Shown: positions 22,725-26,640, counted from the stretch's first letter. The stretch: 64,000 nt of DNA from Patescibacteria group bacterium (GCA_041649135.1 JBAZNQ010000001.1:361983-425982); one strand, 5' to 3'. Translations and numbers: made by a program. Notes: a model not told the origin generated them from the sequence alone.

Positions 22725-22794
22725 ACCCAGATATATTGAGCTGAAGCCTTTATAAAGTCAATTTTACAGTACCTAGTATGCCATAATAATAGAT

Positions 22795-24126
22795 ATGGAA
22801 CCTAATAGCTTATTTAATCCAGCCACCACCATGCCTGCGCTAGCGGGGAGAGAGATTAACATTGCTCCATTGGGCGCCACCAACATGGCTCGAGAATTCG
22901 ATGGATCATGGGATTTTCGTGGCGCCAAGACCAAATCTTATACGCATGGGCTCCATAGTTACCCCGCTATGTTTATTCCGCAGGTAGCACGACGGCTGGT
23001 TCAATCATACAGTCGACCGGGTGACAAAATTTGCGACATTTTTTGCGGCTCAGGTACTACCCTCGTTGAAAGTATTGTTTTGGGACGCGATGCAATCGGA
23101 ATAGACCTAAACCCGCTCGCCGTTTTTTTAGCAAAAGTAAAAACCACTCCAATTAATCCCTCCCTTCTCACAAAAGCATACTTTCATATCGTCGAAAAGT
23201 ATCATCAGCCCGACATTGTAGGCATTACAATACCAGAATTTCCTAATCTAAATTTCTGGTTTAACGAAACTACCATCGCACAACTGGCCAAGCTCAAATA
23301 TGTCATTCGCAAAACCACATCTGGAGATACAAGAGATTTCTTCATGGCAACTTTCAGTGAGGTAGTTCGTTTAGTATCAAACACCAAGAATGGTGAATTT
23401 AAGCTAGTGCGAATGTCGAGTGAAAAACTACGAGACTGGAATCCAAATGTCCTAAATATGTTCCGCAAGAAAGCCGAGAACAATATTGCGGGTATGTCAG
23501 ATTTTTTTCACGAAGTACCCAGTGATCACCGTGCCACAATCATCATCGGAGACTCTTCTCAAGACAATAAAATACCAAAAAACTCCATAGACTTGATACT
23601 CACCTCTCCGCCATATGGTGATAGCCGGACAACAGTGGCATACGGACAATTCTCAAGATTATCGTCACAGTGGATAGATTTATTCGAAGACCCCTCCGAG
23701 GCATCAAAAGTAGACAATCAACTGCTCGGTGGCAACAAGATTGGTGATTTATCACACAATCTACAATCCGTACACTTAATAGCCGCTTTAGAGACTATCG
23801 CACAACAAGACATCTCTCGAGCCAAAGAAGTATTGAGCTTTTTTATTGGGTTAAACCGATGCGTTGAACAAGCGCACTCCATCTTAAAACCCAACCGCCA
23901 CATGTGTGTTGTAATCGGAAATCGTCTAGTAAAACAAGTCCGCATACCCACAGACATCATTATTGCTGAACTTGGAAACGAAATCGGTTTTACATGCGAG
24001 ACCATTATGGCTCGCAATATCCCCGGAAAAAAGATGCCAATACGGAACTCTCCAACCAATATAGCGGGACAACTGGCAGATACCATGAATCAAGAAAGTA
24101 TCGTCGTTCTTCGTAAACTCAAATAA
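22795..24126 (+). CDS. Type II DNA methyltransferase (N4-cytosine or N6-adenine, SPPY; alpha-like motif order I...IV)
   Basis: Motif I DIFCGSGTT at ~aa 80; motif IV TSPPYGD at ~aa 270. Confidence 0.75.
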   Translation: MEPNSLFNPATTMPALAGREINIAPLGATNMAREFDGSWDFRGAKTKSYTHGLHSYPAMFIPQVARRLVQSYSRPGDKICDIFCGSGTTLVESIVLGRDAIGIDLNPLAVFLAKVKTTPINPSLLTKAYFHIVEKYHQPDIVGITIPEFPNLNFWFNETTIAQLAKLKYVIRKTTSGDTRDFFMATFSEVVRLVSNTKNGEFKLVRMSSEKLRDWNPNVLNMFRKKAENNIAGMSDFFHEVPSDHRATIIIGDSSQDNKIPKNSIDLILTSPPYGDSRTTVAYGQFSRLSSQWIDLFEDPSEASKVDNQLLGGNKIGDLSHNLQSVHLIAALETIAQQDISRAKEVLSFFIGLNRCVEQAHSILKPNRHMCVVIGNRLVKQVRIPTDIIIAELGNEIGFTCETIMARNIPGKKMPIRNSPTNIAGQLADTMNQESIVVLRKLK

Positions 24127-24805
24127 GTTTACGAAATGTGCTAAAAACTTCTTTGAAGTCCTTTAAAGGCAATCTAAACGCTGAGCCATGGTCATGAGGC
24201 CTGCCGTCAGGATACCTCCCCATCCTAATGTCGTATTTCATCTTTGCAATAAATCGGTCAAAGTTACCACCCTTACACAGATATGCCTCTTTGTAGGCAA
24301 ACTGTTCTTTGCCGTTATTGTCTTTCTTGGCTTCTGCCAACACTAAAATAACACCTCGACCTACCTTTTTGATAAAGCTATCTTCCAGTTTTGTCCTATC
24401 ATAAGAAACCACCAGTGACTTATGTTTAAACACAATTAGTTCACTATCTTTCTTGTTATCGACCAACCGATATCCTTGCTTATTGGCAACCCGCGTCACT
24501 GTTTGATGCAACACCTTTTTCCCATCTGTAGGACGAGGATACCCAAACTTATCCAATAATTTAGAATTCAAACCAGTATCCGGCTTACGAGTAAACAAAG
24601 TCACCATCGAACCGGTCTCGCGCCTTTGAGCCTTGAGCTCCATCACGCCAAAATCTGGCAGAGCAATATTGTTTTCCGTTATTCCAAGATAATCCTCAAT
24701 AGTCTTGCCGATCCCCGTATTGTGCAATCGGTTTGACTTTATCCAACCCTTGTTGGAAAGATCTTTTAGTTTTTTCTTTATCTGAACAAAAGTAAACTTT
24801 TTCAT
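24119..24805 (-). CDS. Type II restriction endonuclease, MvaI/BcnI-like (PD-(D/E)XK)
   Basis: ITENNIALPDFGVMELK (D-x-E-x-K) and C-terminal GRPHDHG...RLP match my memory of the BcnI/MvaI family. Convergent with the methylase, overlapping by 8 nt. Confidence 0.6.
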   Translation of the reverse strand: MKKFTFVQIKKKLKDLSNKGWIKSNRLHNTGIGKTIEDYLGITENNIALPDFGVMELKAQRRETGSMVTLFTRKPDTGLNSKLLDKFGYPRPTDGKKVLHQTVTRVANKQGYRLVDNKKDSELIVFKHKSLVVSYDRTKLEDSFIKKVGRGVILVLAEAKKDNNGKEQFAYKEAYLCKGGNFDRFIAKMKYDIRMGRYPDGRPHDHGSAFRLPLKDFKEVFSTFRKLI

Positions 24806-25026
24806 AAATTCTCCATAAAAAAATTAATCGACTTTTTATACATACGCGAAAGTTTGTTGAGTTCGATAATATCCAGCCGTCTCTCTCCCGCCTCCACCTT
24901 CGACACAAACGACTGTGGCTTCCCTAATTTTTGAGCCACCTCTTTTTGCGTTAAACCGGCAGACAATCTTGCCTGCTTTAGTTTCTCCACTAACTTCTGA
25001 TATTCCCCCGAGTAAATTGATTTCAT
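24802..25026 (-). CDS. HTH XRE-family controller (C) protein of the R-M system
   Basis: LTQKEVAQKLGKPQSFVSKVE helix-turn-helix. Its 3' end overlaps the start of the endonuclease gene by 4 nt. Confidence 0.7.
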   Translation of the reverse strand: MKSIYSGEYQKLVEKLKQARLSAGLTQKEVAQKLGKPQSFVSKVEAGERRLDIIELNKLSRMYKKSINFFMENL

Positions 25027-25090
25027 AAATGGGAGCTCAACGCCCCCATGCTATATCCCAAAATCGAATATCCCAAAACAGGATATCTTT

Positions 25091-25834
25091 TTATCCCATA
25101 GTCTCAATATCCTCGTAAACTTTGGTCAATAGATCAGTATAATATGTCACTGCGCTCTTAATAGACGCTAGCTTCAAACGAAGACTAGTTGAAAGATCGC
25201 CTTTCATAAACGTTTTCTGAATATACTCAAAATCTTTTGGACTATAATGCTTGCCATCACCATGCACATAGCTGTTACGTCGCGAATACAACCAATCTGC
25301 ATACCCAATAATACTATTCGGTTGTTCTTTGCTACGCTGAGTCTTGGCAAATATCTTCCCGTCCGCACCCACTCTCGGTTGATTACTCACAGCCTTCCAA
25401 GCCAAACATTTATCTAAAATTTTACACAGTTTCACGGAATGTCTTTGGCGTAGCAGATTGCCACGGGTTAGATCTTTCATTTTATCCACTACTGTCTCGT
25501 AAGAACGGTCCTTCATAAAAATTATTTCGAAGACTTCTTTTTTAGAAATTGGCTCCTCATCCACCAGCCTCAAAATTTCTTCTCTCAAATTGGGATTATT
25601 GATTGACAACCAAAGCAATAACTTGTCCACCAGATAATCAAAACGATCGACCAAATTCACATAAACAAGCTTTTGAAGATGTTTACGGTTCGCTTCAGTC
25701 TTGATTTTGTTCAGCTCAGCAATTGCCGATTGAATATCATTATGGCAAAAATCCAAAAAAACCTCTATGTCATTTAGAGGCTCTATGGTAGCCAAGTTGC
25801 CTACATCAATTTTGTGAAGAGATTTTTCTGACAT
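25091..25834 (-). CDS. HEPN-motif protein (putative RNase toxin / Abi effector)
   Basis: C-terminal RRNSYVHG (R-x4-H HEPN motif). Located in the defence island. Confidence 0.5.
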   Translation of the reverse strand: MSEKSLHKIDVGNLATIEPLNDIEVFLDFCHNDIQSAIAELNKIKTEANRKHLQKLVYVNLVDRFDYLVDKLLLWLSINNPNLREEILRLVDEEPISKKEVFEIIFMKDRSYETVVDKMKDLTRGNLLRQRHSVKLCKILDKCLAWKAVSNQPRVGADGKIFAKTQRSKEQPNSIIGYADWLYSRRNSYVHGDGKHYSPKDFEYIQKTFMKGDLSTSLRLKLASIKSAVTYYTDLLTKVYEDIETMG

Positions 25835-25839
25835 ATCAA

Positions 25840-26034
25840 TCAGGATGAAACGTTTCTCCTAATAAACAGCGAATCAACAAATTTGTCCTTCTCTGAATCC
25901 GACATTGAAGGATCAAGAGACTCCTTTAGAATCCGACGCGCCTCATCAAGAGAGATAAGATCACTTGCCATAAGAGTATTGATAACATTCAGTATCAATT
26001 TGATAGGATCAAATGGTCCTAGTAATACATTCAT
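25840..26034 (-). CDS. 64-aa protein co-transcribed upstream of the HEPN gene (candidate antitoxin or partner)
   Basis: Own TATAAT and RBS aggag; ends 5 nt before the HEPN start. Confidence 0.45.
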   Translation of the reverse strand: MNVLLGPFDPIKLILNVINTLMASDLISLDEARRILKESLDPSMSDSEKDKFVDSLFIRRNVSS

Positions 26035-26229
26035 GGATGCACTCCTAACAGTAAATTATAATCACTTCCCTTTTGCCCAGATTATACCCCCGTCTCAACC
26101 TCCTGTATAATCGGCTCTCTTACCCCCATGTAATACACCAACGCCACCCTCACCCAAAGTGCTATAATGCCTGCGTCCAGATTGTAACTTTCCAGTCAGG
26201 CGCAGGCTAAACCAAAAGGAGTAAGACTT

Positions 26230-26583
26230 ATGTCCACAGGAATGAACGCCTCTGAACCGGTCACCGAAATCTTCGGAAAAACCAACATCGGTGGCTACGC
26301 CATCTGTCCAGCCGCTAATCTGGAAGATGGTCGGCACTTTGAGAAGCTCGCCATCCCCGAATGCGAGTTGGAACGACTAGCCGATAGGCTCCACCTTACT
26401 TCACAGGAGCTCCAAGAACTGCTGACCACCAAGGCTGGCGAGCTCACGCTCAAACAGCTCGTCGCTGTTCTGCATTTCATCCGCACCCTCTGGAGTTCAG
26501 ACGACGGCAAGGTCGTTAACTTCGAGCTCTCCGTCGGTCCTATCGACCCAGAGTTCCTCGGCAACTACGACCCGCCCCAGTAA
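26230..26583 (+). CDS. Hypothetical protein, divergent from the HEPN operon
   Basis: Two TATAAT boxes; RBS aaaggag; terminator at 26600-26640. Confidence 0.5.
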   Translation: MSTGMNASEPVTEIFGKTNIGGYAICPAANLEDGRHFEKLAIPECELERLADRLHLTSQELQELLTTKAGELTLKQLVAVLHFIRTLWSSDDGKVVNFELSVGPIDPEFLGNYDPPQ

Positions 26584-26599
26584 TGCTCCGCATCCAAAA

Positions 26600-26640
26600 A
26601 CGAAACCTCGGTCCGCGCCAACCGAGGTTTTTATTTTTGT
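26600..26640. terminator. Bidirectional terminator (aaacctcggt...accgaggttt + T-run)
   Basis: Inverted repeat flanked by A and T runs. Confidence 0.7.

What the first reader, a model, noticed from the sequence alone, without database searches (positions are those of the whole stretch)
22795..26640. Compact defence island: alpha-class SPPY methylase, MvaI/BcnI-like endonuclease, C-protein, HEPN pair
The methylase has motif I (FCGSGTT) N-terminal to motif IV (SPPY), the order reported for M.MvaI/M.BcnIB-type N4-cytosine enzymes. The 228-aa endonuclease has a PD-(D/E)XK core (PDFGVMELK). It resembles what I recall of the BcnI/MvaI family (CCSGG/CCWGG cutters). An XRE-type HTH controller overlaps the endonuclease start by 4 nt. 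Immediately next to it is the HEPN pair, then a divergently transcribed 117-aa unknown. Downstream are a VanX-like M15 peptidase, a LigT-like enzyme and a small hyper-acidic protein.
Basis: partly seen in the sequence, partly recalled or inferred. Interest (0 to 1): 0.55.

Follow-up and report, generated by a model that had tools for sequence, protein, structure and literature searches.

The report
MvaI-like restriction system plus HEPN-like pair
A low-GC 3.3-kb island in a Patescibacteria genome carries an ordinary MvaI-type restriction-modification system with its controller protein and operator, and beside it an uncharacterised HEPN-like protein with a small partner, so most of it is a new member of known kinds.

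Summary
Window 22795-26034 carries a convergent M (443 aa) and R (228 aa) pair, an XRE C gene whose stop overlaps the R start by 4 nt, and a two-gene cassette of 64 aa and 247 aa.

- **R:** it is a clear MvaI/BcnI-family enzyme (Pfam 9e-39). All four MvaI catalytic residues and all eleven MvaI base-contact residues are identical. Both histidines that give BcnI its S specificity are absent. I therefore predict CC/WGG cleavage.
- **M:** motif I (FCGSG) precedes SPPY by 188 aa.
- **Site avoidance:** CCWGG is the second most depleted of 512 pentamer classes in the window.
- **Linkage:** M lies adjacent and convergent to R in 70 of 74 related loci.
- **C-box:** a real one exists at 25053-25086. Its half-sites co-vary across C homologues.
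- **Independence of modules:** the pair is never next to an RM system in relatives, so it looks like a separate module.

Overall the RM part is ordinary and already annotated, and the pair is an undescribed small family.

The parts
22763..22790 (+). Promoter-like site for M (TTTACA-16-AATAAT), ending 4 nt before the M start codon
   Evidence: Consensus scan, 10 of 12 matches. The M-tig spacer is 96% identical in L007. Function is inferred.
22795..24126 (+). M: amino-methyltransferase, 443 aa, FCGSG at residue 83 and SPPY at residue 271. Predicted N4-cytosine methylase for CCWGG.
   Evidence: Pfam N6_N4_Mtase 4e-21 and PADLOC MTase_II 3e-128. The motif order and the 186-188 aa spacing between motifs hold in all 64 homologues checked. 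M is convergent and adjacent to R in 70 of 74 related loci. NCBI names it 'DNA methyltransferase'.
24119..24805 (-). R: MvaI/BcnI-family monomer-type restriction endonuclease, 228 aa. Predicted CC/WGG.
   Evidence: Pfam PF15515 9e-39. PDB R.MvaI 1.4e-21 and R.BcnI 1.4e-14, with alignments. The MvaI catalytic residues E36, D50, E55 and K57, and the contacts R25, N28, T29, T68, T102, D207, R209, H223, D224, H225 and R230, are all identical. BcnI H77 and H219 are T and A here.
24802..25026 (-). C: XRE-type controller protein, 74 aa. Its stop overlaps the R start (ATGA).
   Evidence: HTH_3 3e-14. PADLOC Control_protein models 3e-5 to 9e-3. PDB C.BclI 4e-5, C.AhdI 8e-4, C.Esp1396I 5e-3. A homologue lies directly upstream of R in 23 of 69 related loci.
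25031..25047 (-). Hairpin GGGGGC-GTTGA-GCTCCC just upstream of the C start codon
   Evidence: RNA fold of 25020-25095: -22.1 kcal/mol, z -2.2. In L007 the stem is kept and the loop is changed. Its role is unknown.
25053..25086 (-). C-box: two overlapping 19-bp palindromes, ATATCC-N7-GGATAT (25086-25068) and ATATTC-N7-GGATAT (25071-25053), in a 15-nt register
   Evidence: Repeats found. The box is 34/34 identical in L007 while the genes are 83-88% identical, and homology with L007 starts exactly here. The same 6-N7-6-N9-6 layout with co-varying half-sites (ATAACC/GGTTAT, ATATTC/GAATAT) lies upstream of C homologues. Thirteen of 24 have 2 or fewer mismatches, against 2.4% of random windows.
25091..25834 (-). 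HEPN-like protein, 247 aa. Invariant motifs are NRKHLQ, LRxRHS and YSRRNxxVH (Rx4H). Putative RNase toxin or effector.
25840..26034 (-). Small partner, 64 aa, three helices. Putative antitoxin or adaptor of the HEPN-like protein.
   Evidence: A homologue lies immediately upstream, 0-29 nt apart or overlapping, in all 7 close-clade genome loci and in L001-L003. It is absent from the distant clade. The family has about 30 members, all at least 50% identical. AF2 pLDDT 83. The gene is not called in the NCBI record.
26081..26109 (-). Promoter-like site (TATACA-17-TATAAT) upstream of the 64-aa gene
   Evidence: Consensus scan, 10 of 12 matches. Function is inferred.

Best explanation
Two independent defence-type modules sit side by side in a low-GC island next to the trigger-factor gene of a Patescibacteria genome.

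**Module 1: a Type IIP restriction-modification system of the MvaI kind.**
- M probably methylates N4 of the inner cytosine of CCWGG. It appears to be transcribed from its own promoter.
- R is a single-active-site PD-(D/E)XK enzyme. By analogy with MvaI it would act as a monomer and cut CC/WGG one strand at a time.
- R expression depends on the upstream C protein. C binds the two overlapping palindromes of the C-box. R translation is coupled to C through the ATGA overlap. This arrangement delays and caps R expression relative to M.

**Module 2: a two-gene cassette.**
- A 247-aa HEPN-like protein, a probable metal-independent RNase using the RRNxxVH motif, is preceded by a co-translated 64-aa three-helix partner.
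- The partner most likely keeps the HEPN-like protein inactive, giving toxin-antitoxin or abortive-infection behaviour.

**Shown versus inferred**
- Shown: family memberships, residue conservation, gene linkage, operator conservation, site avoidance.
- Inferred: recognition sequence, m4C chemistry, the regulatory logic of C, RNase activity, and the antitoxin role.
For: **R**
- Pfam 9e-39.
- All MvaI catalytic and base-contact residues are identical. The BcnI S-specific histidines are absent.
- These residues are invariant across 20 R homologues.

**M**
- SPPY and FCGSG are conserved, with PADLOC 3e-128.
- M is convergent and adjacent to R in 70 of 74 loci.

**Site avoidance**
- CCWGG is observed 20 times against about 80 expected. 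It ranks second of 512 pentamer classes.
- In 476 kb of R-positive contigs, CCWGG O/E is 0.51 against 0.81 for CCSGG.

**C and the C-box**
-.
- The regulatory role of C proteins is described in PMC3874152.

**The pair**
- The small partner co-occurs strictly with the close clade.
- The Rx4H motif is invariant.
- Recurrent weak HEPN_RiboL-PSP hits cover the motif region.
- The family is rare and phyletically patchy: 37 of 185,579 species genomes and 103 clusters in 1.84 billion representatives.
- It is absent from viral contigs.
- Its neighbours are TA or defence genes: HepT-MNT in L013 and L014.
- In L007 an AriA/OLD-like ATPase occupies the same slot.
Against: - No biochemical or methylome data exist, so specificity is by analogy with MvaI at about 33% identity.
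- CCWGG avoidance is not specific. CTSAG is even more depleted in the window, and R-negative Patescibacteria loci also show CCWGG O/E 0.68.
- The window's 247-aa protein hits no Pfam, NCBIfam, PADLOC or PDB sequence model.
- Foldseek against PDB is not significant.
- The profile against PDB and hhalign against a HepT sequence found nothing.
- More distant family members have no conserved partner. That fits poorly with a constitutively toxic protein.
Confidence: 0.78

Rival explanations
1. The RM system recognises CCSGG (BcnI-like) or relaxed CCNGG rather than CCWGG.
For: The family contains both specificities. CCSGG is also depleted in the window, with O/E 0.46-0.5.
Against: R is closer to MvaI than to BcnI (1.4e-21 against 1.4e-14). 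It keeps MvaI R209, which reads the central T. It has T and A where BcnI has H77 and H219. CCWGG is twice as depleted as CCSGG, both in the window and in R-positive contigs.
Confidence: 0.12
2. The 247-aa protein is not a HEPN RNase. It is a helical protein of another function, for example a regulator or scaffold. The 64-aa gene is then simply a co-transcribed accessory, so the cassette is not a toxin-antitoxin or abortive-infection module.
Confidence: 0.3
3. The HEPN-like pair is functionally coupled to the RM system. It could act as a PrrC-like second line that fires when the RM system is inhibited, or through read-through transcription into the C-R operon.
For: The four genes share a strand, with only 64 nt and no predicted terminator between the 247-aa stop and the C start. 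HEPN-type nucleases guarded by RM systems are known from established knowledge (PrrC-EcoprrI).
Against: None of the HEPN-family loci examined carries this RM system. The closest RM relative, L007, has an unrelated AriA/OLD-like ATPase in that slot, and homology breaks exactly at the C-box.
Confidence: 0.08

Closest known systems
MvaI restriction-modification system (Kocuria varians; R.MvaI PDB 2OA9/2OAA; CC/WGG, M.MvaI makes m4C on the inner C)
   Same: Same Pfam family. All catalytic and base-contact residues described for R.MvaI are identical. Similar protein size (228 aa here; the 2OA9 chain is 249 aa). A partner methylase with TSPPY.
   Different: Only about one third sequence identity to R.MvaI. 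The host is a Patescibacteria MAG. It has a separate C protein and C-box. Whether MvaI has these was not checked. Activity is untested.
BcnI (CC/SGG; PDB 2ODH/2ODI)
   Same: Same family and same monomer-type fold class.
   Different: The two histidines (H77, H219) that read the central S pair are T and A here. HDR is HDH here. The match is weaker.
C-protein/C-box controlled RM systems (C.PvuII, C.AhdI, C.Esp1396I, C.BclI)
   Same: A small XRE HTH upstream of and overlapping R. Two adjacent palindromic operator sites just upstream of the C gene. Weak but real sequence similarity to solved C proteins (mechanism from PMC3874152).
   Different: The half-site is ATATCC/GGATAT with a 7-nt spacer, not the GACT/AGTC-type box recalled from memory. 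The two palindromes overlap by 4 nt. The promoter elements could not be placed with confidence.
HEPN toxins of HEPN-MNT (HepT-MntA) toxin-antitoxin systems and the Pfam RiboL-PSP-HEPN family (PF18735)
   Different: About twice the size of HepT, with two further invariant R/H motifs (NRKH, RxRHS). The partner is a 64-aa three-helix protein, not an MNT nucleotidyltransferase. No significant sequence match to any HEPN model.

Membership tests
MvaI/BcnI restriction endonuclease family (PF15515) | Full-length match to the family model above the curated threshold | tested here: met
   134 bits against a cut-off of 25, E 9e-39, covering profile positions 2-227 of 227.
MvaI/BcnI restriction endonuclease family (PF15515) | Catalytic E...D-X4-E-X-K residues (MvaI E36, D50, E55, K57) | tested here: met
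   E37, D51, E56 and K58 align to them (residue list from PMC1874612). They are invariant in 20 homologues.
MvaI/BcnI restriction endonuclease family (PF15515) | MvaI-type (W) rather than BcnI-type (S) readout of the central base pair | tested here: met
   The R209 equivalent (R194) is present. The BcnI H77 and H219 positions are T72 and A209. The HDH triad is present. This is a sequence inference only.
MvaI/BcnI restriction endonuclease family (PF15515) | Monomeric enzyme cutting CC/WGG with 1-nt 5' overhangs | not testable with these tools
   Needs enzyme assays.
N4-cytosine/N6-adenine amino-methyltransferases (PF01555), alpha-type order | Family match, an FxGxG AdoMet motif, and an (S/D/N)PP(Y/F) catalytic motif | tested here: met
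   76 bits against a cut-off of 26.7. FCGSG at residue 83 and SPPY at residue 271.
N4-cytosine/N6-adenine amino-methyltransferases (PF01555), alpha-type order | Motif I N-terminal to motif IV, with a long insert (putative TRD) between them | tested here: met
   188 aa lie between the motifs here, and 186-188 aa in the 64 homologues. The Pfam model, which is in beta order, matches in two permuted pieces. Alpha was not strictly separated from gamma.
N4-cytosine/N6-adenine amino-methyltransferases (PF01555), alpha-type order | The product is N4-methylcytosine at CCWGG | not testable with these tools
   Inferred from SPPY and from the MvaI-type partner. Needs methylome sequencing or an in vitro assay.
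RM controller (C) proteins | A small XRE HTH gene immediately upstream of, and co-oriented with, R | tested here: met
   HTH_3 3e-14, with a 4-nt overlap with R. The same arrangement is found in 23 of 69 related loci.
RM controller (C) proteins | A C-box: paired palindromic operators just upstream of the C gene | tested here: met
   Window 25053-25086. The layout is conserved, with compensatory half-site changes across homologues. It is enriched against random windows.
RM controller (C) proteins | Activates and then represses its own and R transcription | not testable with these tools
   Needs reporter fusions or EMSA.
HEPN superfamily | A conserved Rx4-6H motif | tested here: met
   R186-N-S-Y-V-H191. 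R185, R186, N187, V190 and H191 are invariant in 38 sequences.
HEPN superfamily | HEPN four-helix-bundle fold | tested here: inconclusive
HEPN superfamily | A significant sequence match to a curated HEPN family model | tested here: not met
   The window protein has no hit. Twelve of 38 relatives hit PF18735 only below threshold, at most 19 bits against a cut-off of 28.4.
HEPN-MNT (HepT-MntA) toxin-antitoxin | An adjacent MNT nucleotidyltransferase antitoxin | tested here: not met
   The partner is a 64-aa three-helix protein with no NTase domain and no informative fold match.

The most novel reading that the evidence does not exclude
The 64-aa and 247-aa cassette defines a previously undescribed HEPN-like toxin-antitoxin or abortive-infection family. 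It is largely confined to Patescibacteria in its two-gene form. Its composite active site would be built from three invariant R/H motifs (NRKH, RxRHS, RRNxxVH), and a new type of small three-helix neutraliser would bind the clade-specific N-terminal extension.
Probability: 0.35. Interest if true: 0.45.

Novelty: new member of a known kind. Interest (0 to 1): 0.3.

Why it matters
The RM part adds a confidently predicted CCWGG/m4C system, with a defined C-box, to a phylum that has almost no experimental genetics. Knowing the restriction barrier and its protecting methylase is practically useful for anyone trying to transform or co-culture these episymbionts.

The co-varying C-box half-sites give a ready-made specificity series for studying C-protein and operator recognition.

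The HEPN-like pair is a small family without Pfam coverage that could be added to defence and TA catalogues if toxicity is shown.

None of this changes current concepts.

Tried and rejected
**Searches on the 247-aa protein that found nothing**
- Sequence searches against Pfam, NCBIfam, PADLOC and PDB.
- Family profile against PDB.
- hhalign against a HepT sequence: probability 2.5%.
- Foldseek against PDB: nothing significant.
- The afdb50 library was unavailable.
- A profile search of 1.84 billion representatives found only the same small family. Its most distant members did not bridge to a known HEPN Pfam family.

**Other negative results**
- A conserved third partner of the HEPN-like gene: none found. 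The apparent Rhodobacteraceae neighbour is UvrB, which is plain synteny.
- An RNA gene in the GC-rich stretch 26035-26600: no Rfam or tRNA hit.
- Viral contigs: no HEPN-family member and only one distant R relative.
- The M.MvaI motif order could not be cited, because the 1989 and 1995 papers are not held. It remains a recollection.

**Ideas considered and dropped**
- An 8-codon upstream mini-ORF (ATG at 25049) as a leaderless start for C. Its position relative to the likely -10 element does not fit, and only three substitutions were available to judge it.
- Placing the -35 and -10 elements of the C promoter. The result was ambiguous: TTGAGA-16-TATCCT in the window, and TTGACA-17-GATATT only in L007.
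- Comparing CCWGG depletion in R-positive and R-negative contigs as a specificity test. The contrast is only modest, 0.51 against 0.68.
Full report
**1. What is there**

- M lies at 22795-24126 (+, 443 aa).
- R lies at 24119-24805 (-, 228 aa). It is convergent with M, and their 3' ends overlap by 8 nt.
- C lies at 24802-25026 (-, 74 aa). It overlaps the R start by ATGA.
- After a 64-nt spacer comes a 247-aa ORF (25091-25834, -), preceded by a 64-aa ORF (25840-26034, -).
- After a 195-nt spacer comes a divergent 117-aa ORF (26230-26583, +).

The source is a 521-kb contig of a Patescibacteria MAG. NCBI already names R "MvaI/BcnI family restriction endonuclease", M "DNA methyltransferase" and C "helix-turn-helix transcriptional regulator". 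The 64-aa gene is not called in the NCBI record.

The stretch 22795-26034 has GC 0.409 against 0.466 for the window. That is the lowest 0.3% of same-size windows. ORF117 is at 0.56. The compositional island is therefore M through the 64-aa gene.

**2. The restriction-modification system**

*R: family and catalytic residues.*
- R matches Pfam MvaI_BcnI end to end (E 9e-39).
- It matches the solved enzymes R.MvaI (1.4e-21) and R.BcnI (1.4e-14).
- I used the residue lists in the MvaI structure paper (PMC1874612) and the alignment. PDB chain numbering is paper numbering plus 3.
- Every catalytic residue has an identical counterpart: E36, D50, E55 and K57 correspond to E37, D51, E56 and K58.
- Every base-contacting residue also has an identical counterpart: R25, N28, T29, T68, T102, D207, R209, H223, D224, H225 and R230 correspond to R26, N29, T30, T69, T102, D192, R194, H204, D205, H206 and R211.
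- All of these except N29 (invariant) and T102 (≥90% conserved) are invariant in an alignment of 20 homologues.

*R: predicted specificity.*
- BcnI reads its central C:G pair with H77 and H219 (PMC3089477). Those positions are T72 and A209 here, as in MvaI.
- I therefore predict CC/WGG rather than CC/SGG. This is an inference from sequence.

*M.*
- M has FCGSG at residue 83 and SPPY at residue 271. The order is fixed, and the motif spacing is 186-188 aa in all 64 homologues checked.
- It matches a full-length PADLOC type II MTase model at 3e-128.
- SPPY is the catalytic motif typical of N4-cytosine enzymes (established knowledge).
- M.MvaI methylates N4 of the inner cytosines (PMC1874612).

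*Site avoidance.*
- CCWGG occurs 20 times in the window against about 80 expected. It is the second most depleted of 512 pentamer classes.
- This fits the prediction but is not specific. CTSAG is even rarer.
- R-negative Patescibacteria loci also show mild CCWGG depletion: O/E 0.68, against 0.51 in 476 kb of R-positive contigs, where CCSGG is 0.81.

*Linkage.*
- The family is abundant in groundwater metagenomes, with at least 536 relatives.
- In 70 of 74 related loci with enough downstream DNA, an M homologue (55-87% identity) lies convergent and abutting R.

**3. Controller and C-box**

*The C protein.*
- C is an XRE HTH (HTH_3 3e-14).
- It shows modest similarity to solved controller proteins: C.BclI 4e-5, C.AhdI 8e-4, C.Esp1396I 5e-3.

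*The operator.*
- Just upstream, on the gene strand, lies ATATCC-tgttttg-GGATAT-tcgattttg-GGATAT. This is two 19-bp palindromes in a 15-nt register that share ATAT (25086-25053).
- In the closest relative, L007 (R 84% identical), this 34-bp box is 34/34 identical. The C, R and M genes are 88, 83 and 84% identical. Homology to the window begins exactly at the box.
- Upstream of more distant C homologues the same 6-N7-6-N9-6 layout recurs with compensating half-site changes: ATAACC/GGTTAT/GGTTAT in L074, L102 and L109, and ATATTC/GCATAT/GAATAT in L055, L113 and L119.
- Thirteen of 24 C-upstream regions fit with 2 or fewer mismatches, against 2.4% of random 100-nt windows from the same loci.
- This is good comparative evidence for a protein-binding operator.

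*Expected behaviour.*
- C proteins bind such operators cooperatively. They activate and then repress C-R transcription, which delays R relative to M. This comes from the literature (PMC3874152) and was not tested here.
- I could not place the promoter hexamers with confidence.
- A hairpin at 25047-25031 abuts the C start codon. Its role is unknown.

**4. The "HEPN pair"**

*Sequence evidence on the 247-aa protein.*
- It hits nothing in Pfam, NCBIfam, PADLOC or PDB by sequence.
- It has 94 homologues, all unannotated.
- Invariant motifs are NRKHLQ (residues 49-54), LRxRHS (128-133) and GYADWLYSRRNxxVHG (177-192). The last contains the R-N-x3-H form of the HEPN Rx4-6H signature.
- Twelve of 38 relatives give sub-threshold hits to Pfam HEPN_RiboL-PSP. 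These always fall over the C-terminal half that carries the motif.

*Structural evidence.*
- The AlphaFold model is confident (pLDDT 91).
- Against this, Foldseek, a family profile against PDB, and hhalign against a HepT sequence were all non-significant.
- I rate HEPN-superfamily membership as probable, about 0.7, and not established.

*The 64-aa protein.*
- It is not a HEPN domain. It is a three-helix protein (pLDDT 83) with no informative structural neighbour.
- It is nevertheless a genuine partner. A homologue (50-73% identical) lies immediately upstream of, or overlapping, every close-clade relative examined: 7 genome loci plus L001-L003.
- Its family of about 30 members mirrors that clade. 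Only this clade carries the roughly 30-residue N-terminal extension.
- More distant relatives have no conserved neighbour.

*Distribution and context.*
- The family is rare and patchy: 37 of 185,579 species genomes across at least five phyla, and 103 clusters in 1.84 billion representatives.
- It is absent from 2.9 million viral contigs.
- Its neighbours include HepT-MNT pairs, GIY-YIG genes and a rolling-circle Rep.
- All of this fits a mobile toxin-antitoxin or abortive-infection module.

**5. Are the two modules one system?**

Probably not.
- No HEPN-family locus carries this RM system.
- The closest RM relative, L007, keeps tig-M-R-C in synteny. Where the window has the pair, L007 has an AriA/OLD/GajA-like ATPase (PADLOC 1e-24), and the breakpoint is at the C-box.
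- The slot beside the RM system therefore looks like a variable defence-gene position.
- Read-through from the pair into C-R cannot be excluded, because no terminator was predicted between them.
- The VanX-like, LigT-like and acidic genes have no defence signal. They lie beyond a bidirectional terminator at 26602-26631. I do not count them, or ORF117, as part of the island.

**6. Comparison and verdict**

- The RM system is a new member of the MvaI kind with a classical C-protein circuit. It is already correctly named at family level in the public record.
- Added here are the predicted specificity, the operator, and the linkage statistics.
- The pair is an undescribed small family that works most like a HEPN toxin with a non-MNT neutraliser. 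It fails the sequence-model test for any curated HEPN family, and it fails the HEPN-MNT test.
- Overall this is a new member of known kinds, of modest interest.
- The most unusual thing seen lies outside the window. In nearly all relatives the methylase is a fusion of about 620 aa, with a complete LexA (DNA-binding plus S24 peptidase) joined to the MTase, behind a conserved promoter block. The window's M lacks this part.

Noticed in passing
L008-L011 and most of L049-L125 (relatives of the window's RM); e.g. L008:5684-7549: In nearly all related MvaI-like RM loci the methylase is a fusion of about 620 aa. A complete LexA (LexA_DNA_bind plus Peptidase_S24, with AAG, GNSM and LKR motifs) is joined to the N4/N6 MTase. 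Only the window and L007 have the short 443-aa form. This could link RM control to RecA or the SOS response. A five-term full-text search (LexA, methyltransferase, restriction-modification, fusion, Peptidase_S24) listed no paper whose title or abstract concerns such a fusion.
   Followed up: partly
90 nt upstream of the LexA-MTase fusion genes in L051-L125: There is a strongly conserved promoter block: TGTGGATAAC (a perfect DnaA-box sequence on the other strand), then CTTGTATACwTTCTAwTTATTTTCTATAAT, with the ATG about 7 nt after the -10 element (leaderless-like). This could be the operator of the LexA domain.
   Followed up: no
whole window 1-64000: The five most depleted of 512 pentamer classes are all pseudo-palindromes: CTSAG (O/E 0.17), CCWGG (0.25), CCSGG (0.46), CASTG (0.46) and GCWGC (0.53). 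GGCC is also halved. This suggests several present or past RM pressures. No second amino-MTase or C5-MTase motif pair was seen in the window.
   Followed up: partly
window 25840-26034 (-): The conserved 64-aa partner gene is missing from the NCBI annotation, between WC553_01980 and WC553_01985. JGI, ENA and Logan do call it.
   Followed up: yes
window 26230-26583 (+): ORF117 has GC 0.56 in a 0.47 genome and forms a one-member cluster at 90% identity in the 15-billion-protein collection; no homology search was run on it. It has no Pfam, NCBIfam or PADLOC hit, and no Rfam or tRNA signal. Whether it is a real gene is open.
   Followed up: partly
whole window: GC skew is negative in all 64 one-kb windows (down to -0.35), and the cumulative skew falls monotonically. 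The window lies wholly on one replichore, with no origin or terminus signal.
   Followed up: no
P0291, P0298, P0299 (distant relatives of the 247-aa protein): The most distant family members are 320-350 aa long and carry a weak C-terminal DeoR/Mga-like winged-HTH match.
   Followed up: no
L007:83-1252 and L011:7667-9523: Other defence genes flank the same RM cassette in relatives. In L007 an AriA/OLD/GajA-like ATPase sits in the slot held by the HEPN-like pair in the window. In L011 an OLD-family nuclease lies beside the RM system.
   Followed up: yes
window 25031-25047 (-): A hairpin GGGGGC-GTTGA-GCTCCC lies directly before the C start codon. In L007 the stem is kept while the loop differs (GTTGA against ATTAA). 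It could be a translational or attenuation element.
   Followed up: partly
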